Shown: positions 26,392 through 56,039 of the stretch, piece by piece
Layout of the letters: each line of letters starts with the position of its first letter
Position numbering within the stretch: position 1 is the first letter of the stretch
Origin: Octopus vulgaris
Lineage: Eukaryota
Reading direction: 5' to 3'
DNA: 64,000 bases
NCBI GenBank assembly: GCA_951406725.2
Contig: OX597817.1
Location: 36,146,001 to 36,210,000 of the forward strand
The notes under the pieces: model-generated
What the model saw: only the letters and a program-made list of their open reading frames with translations
What the model was told of the DNA's origin: nothing
Database searches by the model: none
Position numbers and translations under genes: made by a program

Positions 26392-27482
26392 GTAAAGTGA
26401 TGGGAAACTGTTCAATCTCTCGCGTCTGCGTGTCAAGACCAAAATCAGAAGCGTCCTTATCAAGGAGATGCTATTTGCTGACGATGCCGCTCTGATATCA
26501 CACACAGAAGAAGCCCTACAAAGGCTCATCAACTCTTTTGAGCAAGCATATGGCAACTTTGGCTTAGTTATCAGCCTCAAGAAGACCAACATCATGGGTC
26601 AGGCTCCATCGGACATCCCAAACATACATATTGGAGACCACAGACTACAGGAGGTGGAGAAGTTTACCTATCTTGGCTCTACCGTCACCTATCCCTTGAT
26701 GCTGAGCTCAATATACGCATTGGAAAGGCAGCTGCTGTGATGGCCCAACTCTCCAAGCGGGCATGGGACAACAATAAGCTGACCAACACCACAAAAATGA
26801 ATATTTACCAGGAATCTGTACATAGCACTCTACTGTATGGAAGTGAGACTTGGACGCGATGCACACACCAAGAGCGTCGCCTAAATATCTTTCACCTGCG
26901 CTGCCTCCGGAAAATCCATCGCATTAAATGGCAGAATCATATCCCCAACAAAGATGTCCTCAAGCAAGCAGGAATACCAAGCATGTTTGCACTCCTCACA
27001 CAAATGCGTATGAGATGGCTTGGACATGTTAGCCGTATGGAAGATGGCAGAATCCTCATGGACATACTCTACGGAGAGCTTGCTAGGGGCACTAGGTATG
27101 TGGGAAAACCGTTCTTACGATACAAGGATGTTTGCAAAAGGGACATGAATGCCTGCAACATCAATATTACCAACTGGAAAGCAGTTGCCAGCAACCGGGG
27201 AGATTGGCGACGTACCGTAAAATAGGGAACATAAAGGAGTGACATAGAGAGAGTGGATAAATGGAAAGGCAAGAAAAGACGTCAACAAGAAACTATGACA
27301 TTACAACCAGCCAGGCAAAGTCTTCGCTACATTTGCGGCACCTGCCTGAGGCAGTGTTTGTCCAGGATAGGACTACATAGCCACAGCAGGAGATGTATTA
27401 GGACATGAAATGTAAAAGCCGGACTAGATTATTTTATGCGCAACTCCATTGTCTCCCGAGACAAAAAGAATGCCAACAACAA
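26392..27482 (+). mobile_element. 5'-truncated RTE/BovB-type LINE (RT C-terminal part, frameshifted)
   Basis: ORFs 26468-26740 (MLFADDAAL..FGLVISLKKT..FTYLGS) and 26737-27225 (LLYGSETW..RWLGHVSRMEDGR..LYGEL); RTE-type 3' end ccattgtctcccgagac..gccaacaac. Confidence 0.92.
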
Positions 27483-40445: not shown

Positions 40446-40496
<51 letters not shown>

Positions 40497-40580
40497 AAGG
40501 GTGGAAAGGAACACACGAGTTGATATATATGAAAAAGCAAGTCAAAAATAGAAAATGCTAAGATAATTTTATAGTGAATC

Positions 40581-40624
40581 TTTCAGTACCGGTTTCGGTC
40601 ATTTTGAGACCTTTTCAACTGTAA
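40581..40624 (-). ncRNA. Mirror copy of the U3-A8 hammerhead on the minus strand
   Basis: Exact reverse complement of 40829-40872. Confidence 0.65.
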
Positions 40625-40828
40625 CGATTAAATAATTAAATTTAGAAAAATTAGAAGAAAAGTTTTTTTAAAAGAATATTTCTATAGTAGTGTTCAGATA
40701 TAAGTGGCATTCTGCCTTTCAGGGGAGTCAGAGAAAGGCAGAATGCCACTTATATCTGAACACTACTATAGAAATATTCTTTAAAAAATACTTTTCTTCT
40801 AATTTTTCTAAATTTAATTATTTAATCG

Positions 40829-40872
40829 TTACAGTTGAAAAGGTCTCAAAATGACCGAAACCGGTACTGAAA
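40829..40872 (+). ncRNA. Minimal type-I hammerhead ribozyme, U3-A8 covariant
   Basis: ttacag-TTGAAAA-GGTC-tcaaaat-GACC-GAAAC-cg-GTA-ctgaaa; palindromic ACCGGT stem III. Confidence 0.7.
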
Positions 40873-40915
40873 GATTCACTATAAAATTATCTTAGCATTT
40901 TCTATTTTTGACTTG

Positions 40916-40981
<66 letters not shown>

Positions 40982-40984
40982 GTT

Positions 40985-41381
40985 TATTCTCTTTTCTATT
41001 ACTTGTTTCAGTCATTTGACTGCGGCCATGCTGGAGCACCGACTTTAGTCGAACAAATCGACCTCAGGACTTATTCTTTGTAAGCCTAGTACTTATTCCA
41101 TCGTTCTCTTTTGCCGAACCGCTAAGTTACGGGGACGTAAACACCTCAACATCAGTTGTCTAGCGATGTGGGGGGACAAACACAGAAACGCAAATATATA
41201 CGTATACATACACACACACACACACACGACAAACTTCTTTCAGTTTTCGTCTACCAAATCCACTCACAAAGCTCTGGTCTGCTCGAGGCTATAGTAGAGG
41301 ACACTTGCCCAAGGTGTCACGTAGTGGGACTGAACCCGGATCCATGTGGTTTGGAAGCAAGCTTCTCACCAGAGAGCCACG
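40985..41381 (-). mobile_element. SINE family A
   Basis: Reverse complement of the family-A sequence. Confidence 0.88.
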
Positions 41382-41382
41382 C

Positions 41383-41410
<28 letters not shown>

Positions 41411-41413
<3 letters not shown>

Positions 41414-42067
41414 GAAGTCAAAAATTATCCACTCTTCCGCCGTAACATATTTTTATTATGGTCACACTGCCTTCTGCGCATGCGTGCTTATAGTTGGTAC
41501 TATTGTGGTTACGTGATCGAAGTTTGAGTCTGATCGCGCCGTTTTTCTTTCTGGCTTTACAGTGTAAAGCCGCTCCACTAGCAATGTGCACCAAAGAGGA
41601 ACAAATTGTAGTGATCCGATTTCTCTGGTCGAAAGGTGTGTCAGGCGCTGAAATTCATTAGAGGCTTTTAGCACAATGCGGGAACAGTGGGCTACCACGT
41701 AGAAGTGTGTATGAGTGAATCGAGAATTTTAAAAGTGACCGGACAAGCGTGAAGTACGAAAAGGAAGCAGGACGCCATTCAACCCCCATCACTGACGAGA
41801 AGATTCAGCAAGCTCGAGAAATGGTAATGGTGAACCAGTTCTCCATTTCCATTTCTCGGATCACTGTCTTTTGTTCTTCTCAGGTGCACGTTGCTAATGG
41901 AGCGACCATGCTTACACTGTACAGCCAGAAAAAATGGCGTGATCAGGCTCGAACTTCGATCACGTGACTACAGTAGTACCATCTGTAAGCCTGCAGACGC
42001 AGAAGGCAGTGTGGCAATAGTAAAGACATGTTATGGAGAAACTGCGGATAATTTTTAACTCTCCTCG
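41411..42067 (+). mobile_element. Mariner-derived fold-back element (irritans-like) with a decayed transposase N-terminus
   Basis: Inverted arms 41411-41619 and 41856-42067, TA flanks; internal translation CTKEEQIVVIRFLWSKGVSGAEIH*RL..RRSVYE*IENFK..EAGRHST. Confidence 0.85.
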
Positions 42068-43829
42068 TATATATGTTTTATGACTGTCCTTTTCCCAAAA
42101 TGCGTAAACACATAATGAGAGACTCGTACGGGACAAAATACCAAAAGAAGTATAACCTTTCCTCAGTTGTCGACTGTTAATTATTCCCTATTTCGCGCTT
42201 TCGACGACAAGATAGGAAACCTTCATAAAACAGCAGCGTCCAGAAATTTTAAAAATATAAAATTTGTGGAGAGTTAAAGCTTCGAACAAACAAACAACGG
42301 CAAGATGGACTAACAGAGTAAACAATCTACTAAGACAAACATTAAGGGCCGTTAGGCCAAGACGGATTCTAATGGATAACGCCTGGGAGAAAGTTTGAAA
42401 GGATATAGAATATATAAGTTCCCATATATATATATATTCGCCTGCTGGTAACATTTTTCTGATTTATGATAGTAAATACCTAATATTTCTCTGTTGTTTA
42501 TAGCATTCGAAATTTACTTTTTTGTCTGTAATAATATATATACATACATATATATATACATATATGTATATGGTCATTTGATGATTAATTCATTTGTGTA
42601 GTTATATATTTATTTATGAACTTATTTACTAAAAGCAAGCCTATTGTTGTTATAATTATTACAATGGTGTCGGTAAATATTGTTGATGTTCTAGACGTTG
42701 TAGCTGCTGCTGTTGCTTTCTGAGTGTGTGTATGCGTGTGTGTTTACGTTAGATAGTCTCCTTAATTATAATTATGTTTCTGTTTTGATACACAGTCTAG
42801 ACTAAAATCAGCACAGTTATACACACGTGCTAGCACACGCGCACACAATCACGTGTATGTTTGCAATTAATTCTATTTACTCTGTATACAAAATAAGTTT
42901 ATGGATAAATTGAAAAGTCTGCTATACCTGCGGTAAGATAAGTTAGTTCAGGCTTCCTCATATCTTATTAATCAGTTTATAGCTGAAAGCAATCTTCAGA
43001 TGAGAATGGATTGCAGAAGGGATACGTTAGAATCATATTGCTTGATGTAATATTTATGAACATACACATATGTGCGTGCATGTGTATACGAACGACAGAA
43101 AAGTACAATCAACATATCTTGTGGAGTTTAAATATTTTTATTACCATTTACTAAGAATTGTAATAGTTTCATAGTTTCATAGACACTCAAAGCACGTTCG
43201 ACCACTTGACAGCGAATAGTGTGGTGGTTGTGGCTTTTAAATAAATCTGAATCTCAGTGGTCGATGTGTAGCCAGTTTGGATTGACCACTCATAGTATTG
43301 ATATCTCAATGACCTACCGAACAAGAGTAGTCTGCTTTGTTCCTATGGGGGAAGTTCCAGTAAAATTTGAATTTTTCAGTAAAGTTCATGTAATATTTAC
43401 AACTAGTTATTAGAAATTAGTCAATGGAGAGCTCTTTTGCTGGCAGTTAAATGATAGTTATATCTTTGATAAGGGAAAAGCGAACTGCTGTAATATATTC
43501 GTGGCTCGACTATCACCCATCCAGCAGGTATAGTTAGGTCAGTGTTATTCAAATACACCATATAATTAGAAATAACAAATGAGAACGAGCTTCGCTCATC
43601 ATACAATGGCAATTAATTTTATTTAGAAATGATGACAACCTCTTTATTCAGTACCAGTCGTCAAATCGAACAGACGTACTATTTGTTTCTAAAGAACTTC
43701 AATTGATGAAATTCCCAGTGAAGCTTTTATTATATGTATGCATGCATAAATATATACATATGTACTGTTAGTCAAAATGAATATTGAAATTGAGAATTTT
43801 AGAAGTATTATTTGCAGAGTTATTGTATA

Positions 43830-44559: not shown

Positions 44560-47180
44560 TCTCTCTCTCTATAAAATTCTTTGTCTGTCTGTCTGTCTGT
44601 CCTTCTTTCTATCTGTCTTTCCTTCTGTCTATCTGTCTCTGTTTCCAATGCATTCCCAAACGGTTTGACCAAATCAAATCAAATTTTACAAAGTTATAGT
44701 ATCACACCCCGCGAGTGTCAACATGTAATTTTTTCCCGCCTGTCTGTCTGTTTCCTGTGCATTCTCAAACGGCTCGACCAAATCAAATCAAATCAAATTT
44801 CACAAGGTCATAGTATTACACCCCGCGAGTGTCAACACGTAATTCTTTTTTTCATTTGGCTTAAAACAATATAACAGTTTATCTAAAATAATATTTCTAT
44901 AGTCAACTACAGAAAAGGACATTTTATACGACGACGACGTCGTCACAATTTTGTATATGAGTGCGTATGTGTCTGTGAGTGTGTGTGTGTGTTTGTGCGT
45001 TCGTTACATACGTTAGGCCTCATAGAATTATATACAAATACAGATCTACACATATATACACTTATGTGTATATGAGTGAGTGTGTGCATGTGTCTGTGAG
45101 TGTTTGCGCGTTCGTTACGTACGTTAGGCCTCAGAGAATTGTACACACATAACATCTACACAGACATATACGTATGTGTATATGAGTGTGTATGTGTCTG
45201 TGAGTGTGTGTGTGTTTGCGCGTTCGTTACGTATGTTAAGCCTTAGAGAATTAAACACATCTACACATACATATGTGATGACTGACAAGTGTATGTGTGT
45301 GAGTATACATACATTTTGTGTCGACTAATACATACACACATCGAGAGAGAGGGAGAGAGATAGGCCATAATGCCGAGAGAGATACAATTAAAGTGTTAGA
45401 TATTGAGAGAGAGAGAGAGAGAGAGAGGGGGGTTTACCCTGAGGTGTGCGTGAATGTATGTCTGTGTGTGTCTGTCTTAGTATATGTATGTGAGAGGATG
45501 TGAGAGTGTATGTGTATGTGAGTGCATGTGTGACAATTTTTATTTTCATTTGGATTAAAACAATATAACGCTTTATCTAAAACTACTACAGGCAATTAAG
45601 TAAACGACTCATCGACTACGACGTCACATTAATTTCTTTATGACGTCACCTTTTGTATATGAATGCGTATGTGTCTGTGAGTGTGTGTGTTTGCGCGTTC
45701 GTTAGGTACGTTACTAAACATATACACACATCTACACATACATATATATATATGTGACGACTGACAAAAAACTGAAGTGAAAATCTATGAGTATGTTTGT
45801 GACACACACATCTACACATACATATACATATGTGACCACTGACAAAATGTGAAGAGCTATGTATGTCTGTGTGTCTCTGTCTTAGTATATGTATGTGAGT
45901 GTATGTGAGAGCGTTTGTGTATGTGATTGCATATGTGTGCGAAATTTTGTGTGTTGACTGACCAAGCTCCCTCTAAACTTTGCAAATCTCAAATGTGGGG
46001 CATTTCCAAAAGCTCTGCAATGGCAACAGTTCTCCAACAAACTTGCCTCATTGTTTGGGTTGAGTGTACTGTCACACCATGGAGCTCTAGAGGCACTTGA
46101 CCCCCCCCAAGACATAAAAAACAATAGGAGTAACAGTTCTTGCAGGAGATTTTCGTCAAAGCTTGCCAGTTATACCCAAAGGATCAAAAGCTGATGAGGT
46201 CAATGCATGCTTAAAAAAATTGTACCCTTGGAGACATGTGAGAAAGCTTCACCTTACAAGCAACATGAGAGTACTTCATACAGCTGGAGCTTCTTAAGAT
46301 TGGTAATGGGATATTAACGTTCAACCTTAGACTTCAGCTACATGAAATTACATGCGGTCAAATGGTACTTTCTCTTATGGATCTTATGGATTAAGTATTT
46401 CCTAATTTATCTATCAATTCCATTGATGTAAATTGGCAATGTGAAAGAACTATACTGGCTTCAACTAATGAAATGGTTGATAAACTCAATCATAAACTTC
46501 TTCAGAAATGACTTTTCGATCAATTGACAGAACAGTCGATCAAGGTCAGGCTGTTCAATGACCTGTTGAATTTCTGAACACACTTAAACCTACTAGAATG
46601 CCACCTATAACTTGACATTAAAGCTGAGTTCTCCCATTATGTTGCTTAGGAATCCCTACCCACCTTGCCTGAGTAATGGAATTCAGTTAATTATTACTTC
46701 CATGAAGCCCCATGTCCTAGAGGAAACAATAACAGGTAGTCACATGGGAGAAAATGTCTTTATTCCCAAAATTCCTCTCATACCTGCAGATGTTCCATTT
46801 GAATTCAAGACGCTTCAGTTTCCAGTCAAACTAAGTTTTGGTATTTCAATTAACAAATCTCAGGGTCAATCCCTCAATATAGTTGGAATTGACGTCTCTA
46901 CGATTTGCTTCTCCCACGGCCAAATCTATGTTACGTGCTCACGAGTTGGAAGCAGCAACGATTTATTTATTTGGACACCAACAAAAAAGTTACCCAAGGA
47001 ATATTGCTTACTCTGAGGTGTTTCAAGATTGATAAATCTTCAATTCTAAGTTCTATTATCATTAAAATTAGGATATTTTAAAATAAAATATAGATATTTT
47101 GAAATAATTATGAGGAAAAAAAAATATCTTCATATTTATTGTTTACTAATCTGAATAAGAACGCCGGGTCATTCAGCTAG
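44560..47180 (+). mobile_element. Deleted Helitron with tandem sub-repeats and a helicase remnant
   Basis: 5' TCtctctctctataaaa with (TCTG)n, internal repeats of about 110-120 bp, 3' acgccgggtcattcagCTAG|t. Confidence 0.8.
46125..47016 (+). pseudogene. Helitron PIF1-like helicase C-terminal remnant
   Basis: VLAGDFRQSLPVIPKGSKADEVNACLK near 46135; ORF 46612-47016 has PIMLLRN..QFPVKLSFGISINKSQGQSL..FSHGQIYVTCSRV; stops and frameshifts between them. Confidence 0.92.

Positions 47181-53392: not shown

Positions 53393-56039
<2,647 letters not shown>

What the first reader, a model, noticed from the sequence alone, without database searches (positions are those of the whole stretch)
40532..40921. 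390-bp palindrome carrying a U3-A8 covariant hammerhead on both strands
Seen: near-perfect arms of about 190 bp, each with ttacag-TTGAAAA-GGTC..GACC-GAAAC-cg-GTA-ctgaaa. The core differs from CUGAnGA at exactly positions 3 and 8. Known: C3-G8 is a tertiary Watson-Crick pair in the active hammerhead, so U3-A8 is a compensatory swap. Inference: this is a selected ribozyme variant. A read-through transcript would also contain its own antisense, forming a long dsRNA that could sequester the ribozyme and be a substrate for ADAR or Dicer.
Basis: partly seen in the sequence, partly recalled or inferred. Interest (0 to 1): 0.75.

Follow-up and report, generated by a model that had tools for sequence, protein, structure and literature searches.

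The report
Head-to-head Penelope retroelement ends with hammerhead
This palindrome is a one-off insertion of two short, oppositely pointing copies of the end of a common jumping gene, each carrying an already described variant of a predicted self-cutting RNA; it is ordinary, except that sister copies in the genome hint that the RNA likely does cut itself in the animal.

Summary
Observation confirmed: 189-nt arms, 3 mismatches, 12-nt spacer, a type I hammerhead with U3-A8 on each strand. The arms are the 3' end (pLTR) of a young Neptune/Nematis-type Penelope-like retroelement (ORF1, RT, GIY-YIG upstream in longer copies; 1,818 exact copies of the core). Head-to-head doubling in (TA)n is the family's normal insertion form; this junction occurs once in the genome. 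The insertion is larger than reported: the left arm carries the 30-nt PLE 'tail' (40493-40522). U3-A8 and opposite-strand pairs are both published for PLE hammerheads (PMC4209133; PMC3088659), and this scan noted a similar locus before (e1-9539494). Nothing suggests a selected, locus-specific dsRNA device. Of more interest, family-wide: the tail sits on exactly one arm in 38 of 39 head-to-head loci and both arms share subfamily type in 39 of 39, which points to one RNA primed twice; and 5'-truncation points pile up at and just after the predicted cut (27 of 28 arms in a 14-position window), a possible footprint of cleavage in vivo. Reverse transcriptase stalling at the folded RNA remains a rival. 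Activity, expression and long-read support are untested.

The parts
40452..40492 (.). left (TA)n target microsatellite
   Evidence: sequence; (TA)n beyond the arm ends in nearly all of the 39 loci printed
40493..40531 (-). PLE 'tail' (30 nt, 40493-40522) plus the internal CATATATAT step; present on this arm only
   Evidence: same sequence follows the pLTR in L031 and, in the partial tandem L081, runs on into the 5' leader of ORF1; on exactly one arm in 38 of 39 loci
40532..40720 (-). left arm: 5'-truncated pLTR copy
   Evidence: 99% to the 3' end of L031
40577..40629 (-). minimal type I hammerhead, U3-A8, core starting at 40618; predicted cut between 40587 and 40586
40721..40722 (.). junction bases (AG), not matching either arm's continuation in full; junction unique in the genome
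40723..40921 (+). right arm: 5'-truncated pLTR copy without tail
   Evidence: loose ends at 40723
40824..40876 (+). minimal type I hammerhead: stem I CAG 40832-40834 / CTG 40867-40869 (outer AATC/GATT), core TTGAAAA 40835-40841 (U3 40835, A8 40840), stem II GGTC/GACC 40842-40856, GAAA 40857-40860, palindrome ACCGGT 40860-40865, predicted cut GUA between 40866 and 40867
40922..40979 (.). right (TA)n target microsatellite
   Evidence: sequence

Best explanation
The palindrome is two severely 5'-truncated copies of the 3' end (pLTR) of a Penelope-like retroelement lying head to head in a (TA)n microsatellite, likely made in one insertion event, and its U3-A8 hammerhead is the family's inherited, predicted dimer-type ribozyme rather than a device of this locus. 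Shown: family membership, RT and GIY-YIG ORF upstream in long copies, (TA)n flanks, tail on one arm, unique junction. Inferred mechanism: the element's enzyme cuts both strands of (TA)n; each 3' end primes reverse transcription on the same RNA, one at the CATATAT step before the tail and one at the CATAT after it; both cDNAs stop after about 200-230 nt and are end-joined, leaving a tailed and a tail-less arm. The template here was uncut at the hammerhead, since both arms read through the cut site. The hammerhead is predicted to cut only as a dimer through ACCGGU, probably with help from the element's protein; each strand of the palindrome holds one sense copy and its full antisense, so a read-through RNA would fold into dsRNA and not cut.
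For: 1,818 exact copies of the 32-nt core, 0 for the reversed control. Arms match the 3' end of loci with RVT_1 and GIY-YIG hits; DKG motif, C-x4-C-x2-C linker and LIY-CxxC-YIG in the ORF. L081 is a partial tandem: pLTR, hammerhead, tail, then ATG of ORF1. Among the first 100 of 1,818 matches, 26 neighbours lie within 6 kb: 22 head-to-head (191-4,285 nt apart), 2 tail-to-tail, 2 direct. Tail on exactly one arm in 38 of 39 head-to-head loci; arms differ by 0.74 per 92 nt within a locus vs 3.49 between loci, permutation P 5e-5; subfamily type concordant in 39 of 39, chance 0.36 per locus; rare changes are shared by both arms of one locus (A8C at C23; A17G in L185/L186). Of 36 junctions mapped, 31 show a 0-6 nt overlap or an insert of up to 16 nt; 3 have longer inserts or duplications and L004 a 39-nt alignment overlap (the remaining one, L056, has a 13-nt insert in a microsatellite and is counted among the short inserts only loosely). 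Window junction: 1 copy in the genome. ACCGGU self-duplex -8.3 kcal/mol, monomer fold with stem III closed only -1.1. Literature: inverted 5'-truncated copy and one-ended tail are typical (PMC8557442; PMC3846280); both strands cut and extended, two start sites bounding the tail, uncut RNA as main template (PMC11167929).
Against: No long read or raw read could be laid, so this particular junction rests on the assembly. Shared variants between arms could also come from gene conversion in the hairpin or from two RNAs of one source copy. One family-B palindrome (L152) has U3-A8 on one arm and C3-G8 with a different stem I on the other, so two templates do occur, and L037 has tails on both arms. 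The 39 loci were hand-picked from loci found by best match or exact core, so young copies are over-represented. Clade assignment rests on motifs, not a tree. No cleavage assay exists for this sequence.
Confidence: 0.9

Rival explanations
1. The palindrome is a host-selected dsRNA device: read-through transcription makes a long hairpin that sequesters the ribozyme and feeds ADAR or Dicer.
For: Hairpin is 86 kcal/mol more stable than a fold with the hammerhead forced. Any transcribed head-to-head copy would give such dsRNA; small RNAs from inverted PLE copies are mentioned for rotifers (PMC3846280 passage).
Against: The locus is one of many equivalent insertions of varying length, about 99% identical to its source family, with private changes only. 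No host exon was evident among ORFs of 120 aa or more in 25-56 kb (not a gene annotation).
Confidence: 0.05
2. It is a non-autonomous foldback or MITE-like DNA transposon with 190-bp terminal inverted repeats and a TA target duplication.
For: Long inverted ends in (TA)n; some arm pairs lie about 4 kb apart.
Against: The DNA between distant arms is RT and GIY-YIG coding sequence, itself partly inverted; arm lengths and junctions differ at every locus; junction unique; ends asymmetric; many single arms.
Confidence: 0.02
3. It is an assembly or library fold-back artefact.
Against: Arms differ at 3 places, start 10 nt apart and only one has the tail, unlike a fold-back chimera; the same asymmetric design recurs in 38 of 39 loci and is described for PLEs elsewhere.
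Confidence: 0.03

Closest known systems
Minimal U3-A8 hammerheads of Cercyon PLEs in Schistosoma mansoni (Cervera and De la Pena 2014, PMC4209133; parts 1-2 of 4 read)
   Same: Type I motif in the pLTR, U3-A8 core (about 1,300 hits there), palindromic positions 15.2-16.2, pairs 100-700 bp apart on opposite strands, mostly truncated copies.
   Different: Stem II is 4 bp with no extra base between 9 and 10.1 (there 7-8 bp with an extra base); a 2-nt CG loop III is present; copies here are highly uniform, more like D. virilis Penelope; host is another phylum.
Neptune/Nematis-type C-terminal EN+ PLEs with inverted 5'-truncated copy and one-ended tail (Craig et al. 2021, PMC8557442; Introduction and passages read)
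   Same: RT then GIY-YIG, DKG, CX2-5CxxC linker, CxxC between GIY and YIG, (TA)n targeting, tandem and inverted forms, 30-nt tail at one end, hammerhead near the 3' end.
   Different: This copy has lost all coding sequence; the family has a separate 410-aa ORF1 overlapping the RT frame at -1 (an option named in that paper's Fig. 1 legend; the figure itself was not seen).
Poseidon of Anolis carolinensis in vitro (Frangieh et al. 2024, PMC11167929; parts 1-2 of 4 read)
   Same: Cuts and extends both strands at AT-rich DNA, two RT start sites that bound the tail, hammerhead not needed for insertion and active only with protein.
   Different: C3-G8 core; different clade; they found no RNA-seq reads starting or ending at the cut, whereas this family shows an excess of genomic copies starting there.
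Natural U3-A8 hammerheads (Perreault et al. 2011, PMC3088659; passages read)
   Same: C3-G8 covaries to U3-A8 in several natural ribozymes; said there to be already proven active in vitro.
   Different: The passages read do not tie those examples to PLEs or palindromes.

Membership tests
Penelope-like element, C-terminal EN+ | PLE-type RT followed by C-terminal GIY-YIG in the parent element | tested here: met
   RVT_1 E 1e-7 to 2e-7 above cut-off; GIY-YIG 23.2 bits vs cut-off 22.6 in L081, 20.1 (below) in L083
Penelope-like element, C-terminal EN+ | pLTR in partial tandem and inverted arrangement | tested here: met
   L081 tandem; 22 head-to-head pairs
Penelope-like element, C-terminal EN+ | Optional 30-40 nt tail at one end | tested here: met
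   38 of 39 loci; window 40493-40522
Penelope-like element, C-terminal EN+ | CCHH motif in the endonuclease | tested here: inconclusive
   CxxC between LIY and YIG and two later His seen in the translation; not aligned to references
Neptune or Nematis clade | CX2-5CxxC linker between RT and EN; DKG (not DKA of Naiad or DKT of Hydra) | tested here: met
   CGRPNCGIC and EADKG; criteria
Neptune or Nematis clade | Placement in an RT phylogeny | not tested
   no reference set was fetched
Type I hammerhead ribozyme | Core YUGANRA...GAAA...UH with a 3-8 Watson-Crick pair | tested here: met
   UUGAAAA, GAAA, GUA
Type I hammerhead ribozyme | Stems I and II, G10.1-C11.1 | tested here: met
   pair probabilities 0.96 (II) and 0.72 (inner I) in the 57-mer; family B keeps the pair as A-U in 33 of 33 anchored rows, register in the A run ambiguous
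Type I hammerhead ribozyme | Stable stem III in the monomer | tested here: not met
   2 bp with a CG loop; only as an intermolecular ACCGGU duplex, -8.3 kcal/mol: minimal dimer type
Type I hammerhead ribozyme | Rfam gathering score | tested here: not met
   HH9 22.9 bits vs 52
Type I hammerhead ribozyme | Self-cleavage | not testable with these tools
   indirect genomic hint only
MITE / foldback DNA transposon | Amplified as a unit with fixed symmetric termini | tested here: not met
   junction unique, ends asymmetric
Non-LTR retrozyme | Tandem head-to-tail units each with a hammerhead | tested here: not met
   one hammerhead per strand in the window; definition from 10.64898/2026.07.22.740005, part 1 of 5

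The most novel reading that the evidence does not exclude
The genome records this U3-A8 PLE hammerhead cutting in vivo and a one-RNA, two-primer insertion mechanism: both ends of a double-strand break in (TA)n prime on one transcript at the two sites bounding the tail, and in a small minority of events the transcript had already been cut by the hammerhead, so that arms, in six loci both arms, begin at or just after the cut. This would be genomic evidence for PLE hammerhead activity in an animal, which RNA-seq in Anolis did not show, and a rule explaining why tail and inversion go together.
Probability: 0.35. Interest if true: 0.55.

Novelty: new member of a known kind. Interest (0 to 1): 0.27.

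Why it matters
The locus itself matters little: it is one of hundreds of like insertions. The family is a good test bed for two open points in PLE biology named in the papers read: how inverted copies and tails arise (PMC8557442) and whether the pLTR hammerheads cut in vivo (PMC4209133, PMC11167929). With some 1,800 near-identical arms, tail asymmetry, arm concordance and truncation points can be counted genome-wide. Head-to-head copies are also a ready source of about 200-bp dsRNA wherever they are transcribed.

Tried and rejected
Whole-window Rfam scan: microsatellite-driven miRNA hits only in the rows shown; the miRNA-like hits over the junction reflect the perfect hairpin. Monomer folding does not stand out from shuffles. 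Core conservation within family A is uninformative (copies found by the core or at 95-100% identity); between families A and B the flanks are also about 80% alike, so an identical core is weak evidence. A 69%-identical relative (L150) gave no hit with my descriptor. Sequencing runs: no RNA holder listed on record, all runs are contigs; X15 (RNA is a guess) covers the arms but none of the unique flank, so expression and A-to-G editing could not be read; no contig bridged the junction in the rows shown. My first hand tally of truncation points included internal indels and was replaced after inspection. Lunse et al. (PMC5785218) is not held; I saw only its title in a reference list. No supplements were read; their alignments may list this family. 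Literature searches: hammerhead+Penelope+dimer (25), PLE+Neptune+microsatellite+inverted+pLTR (8), hammerhead+U3-A8 (1), hammerhead+C3U+G8A (0), hammerhead+octopus+Penelope (5), Penelope-like+hammerhead+self-cleavage+in vivo+pLTR (3); in what I read none reports genomic truncations at a PLE hammerhead cut.

Full report
Observation. The inverted repeat is real in the assembly: 189-nt arms at 40532-40720 and 40733-40921, 12 nt apart, differing at three places, between (TA)n runs. Each strand carries one type I hammerhead motif with core UUGAAAA, stem II GGUC/GACC, GAAA, a palindromic ACCGGU and a GUA site. Rfam HH9 matches weakly (22.9 bits, E 0.0024).

What it is. One arm finds 1,440 candidates in the 2.8-Gb genome, 49 matches from the 40 scored at 95-100%; the 32-nt core has 1,818 exact copies, control 0. 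Short-read contigs of other runs show summed depth of tens to hundreds of thousands on the arms against about 20-100 on the unique flank, so the family is not an assembly product. Longer copies continue upstream into an ORF with RVT_1 and GIY-YIG matches, a DKG motif and a C-x4-C-x2-C linker, the marks of Neptune/Nematis PLEs as given in PMC8557442. L081 is a partial tandem in which pLTR, hammerhead and tail run into a 410-aa ORF1. The window arms are therefore pLTR ends, and the insertion extends left to 40493 through the tail.

Why a palindrome. Of 26 close neighbours among the first 100 listed core copies, 22 are head to head at 191-4,285 nt. I picked 39 non-redundant head-to-head loci from those fetched. 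The tail is on exactly one arm in 38 (24 left, 14 right) and on both in one three-piece locus. Arms of one locus are closer than arms of different loci (0.74 vs 3.49 differences in 92 nt, P 5e-5) and are of the same subfamily type in 39 of 39 (chance 0.36 each). The only two U3-C8 copies found are the two arms of one locus. Most of the 36 junctions mapped show a few bases of overlap or a short insert, and the window's junction occurs once. I infer that both ends of a break in (TA)n prime on one RNA, at the two AU-rich steps bounding the tail, and that the truncated cDNAs are end-joined. This fits the Anolis enzyme, which cuts and extends both strands and starts at two sites bounding the tail (PMC11167929). 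PMC3846280 prefers self-priming on an antisense template for such junctions; my data do not exclude it for loci with symmetric junctions such as L209.

The ribozyme. U3-A8 is published for natural hammerheads (PMC3088659) and for Cercyon PLEs, together with opposite-strand pairs 100-700 bp apart (PMC4209133). Selection on pairing has modest support here. In family A context there are 3 C3-A8, 1 G3-A8, 2 U3-G8, 2 U3-C8 and 1 C3-G8 copies; one double change has P about 0.003 under independence, 0.03 with generous rates (post hoc, one copy, patterns not identical). An older family B (2,896 candidates, 40 scored) mostly keeps U3-A8 and has A10.1-U11.1 for G-C in 33 of 33 anchored rows (two rows had no anchor), and one B arm has C3-G8. 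The monomer is not better folded than shuffles; stem III is stable only between two molecules. Such motifs were inactive as monomers and weak as dimers, and the Anolis one needed protein. The two motifs of the palindrome are on opposite strands and cannot partner in one transcript; the hairpin wins by 86 kcal/mol.

Possible footprint of cutting. A pattern catching arms that start within -5 to +9 of the cut gave 37 hits; 9 were internal indels or another family on inspection and were dropped. Of 28 arms in 23 loci, 27 start at -1 to +9 and 1 at -5 to -2 (P 0.004 by loci); 8 start at -1/+1. A like window upstream of the core gave 13 hits, 11 junctions; the combined test gives P 0.004 by loci with a rough capture correction. 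A direct search gave 8 junctions at +1 among 15 hits, against 4 at +4 among 12, which alone is not a clear excess. In six loci both arms start at or just after the cut (L178, L184, L188/189, L203, L209, L210). Stalling of RT at stems I and III would put stops in the same region, very short cDNAs may be commoner anyway, and both-arm coincidence also occurs elsewhere (L040, L161). Most copies, the window's included, read through the site, so uncut RNA is the main template.

dsRNA device. Nothing speaks for a locus-specific role; expression and editing could not be examined (see Tried and rejected).

Verdict. A new member of a known kind: an inverted, truncated PLE insertion with a published hammerhead variant. 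Interest 0.27, carried by the family-level counts. Papers seen: PMC4209133 parts 1-2 of 4; PMC11167929 parts 1-2 of 4; PMC8557442 Introduction and passages; PMC3846280, PMC3088659, PMC6765202 passages; 10.64898/2026.07.22.740005 part 1 of 5; no supplements.

Noticed in passing
G000:C1:20002279-20004541 (L122-L128) and others: A tandem family with a unit of about 359 bp and a canonical C3-G8 hammerhead (CTGACGA GAGG..CCTC GAAACCGGTC), retrozyme-like; arrays often flip head to head like PLE insertions, which would fit mobilisation by a PLE enzyme.
   Followed up: no
L081 4354-4417 (-), also L031, L032, L042, L050, L083, L086: ORF1 overlaps the RT frame at -1 with a TTTTTTA heptamer in 7 of 7 loci checked; the slippery-site reading is recalled; no stable hairpin downstream (-0.9 kcal/mol).
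   Followed up: partly
L051-L080, 169-184 nt upstream of the cut: 6 of 30 arms start in this 16-nt stretch; may be the transcript's 5' end in the pLTR.
   Followed up: partly
L089 (G000:C13:524776) and L152 (G000:C5:30322882): Single copies of families A and B with a C3-G8 core.
   Followed up: partly
L188/L189 (G000:C18:83605030-83605153): Both arms start exactly at the cut and enclose about 65 nt of unrelated sequence.
   Followed up: partly
window 40981-41380: SINE-like repeat next to the right (TA)n with summed depth up to 2e7 in contigs.
   Followed up: no
window 41402-41546 / 41930-42074: Second inverted repeat, 145-nt arms at 79%, 383 nt apart; MITE-like.
   Followed up: no
window 26542-27225, 46597-47016, 53571-56039: ORFs that look like an RTE-type RT end, a PIF1 helicase fragment and an 822-aa LINE RT (labels by eye, recalled).
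   Followed up: no
L150 (G000:C17:44923500-44928000): A 69%-identical PLE relative with RT and GIY-YIG whose 3' region gave no hit with my hammerhead descriptor.
   Followed up: partly
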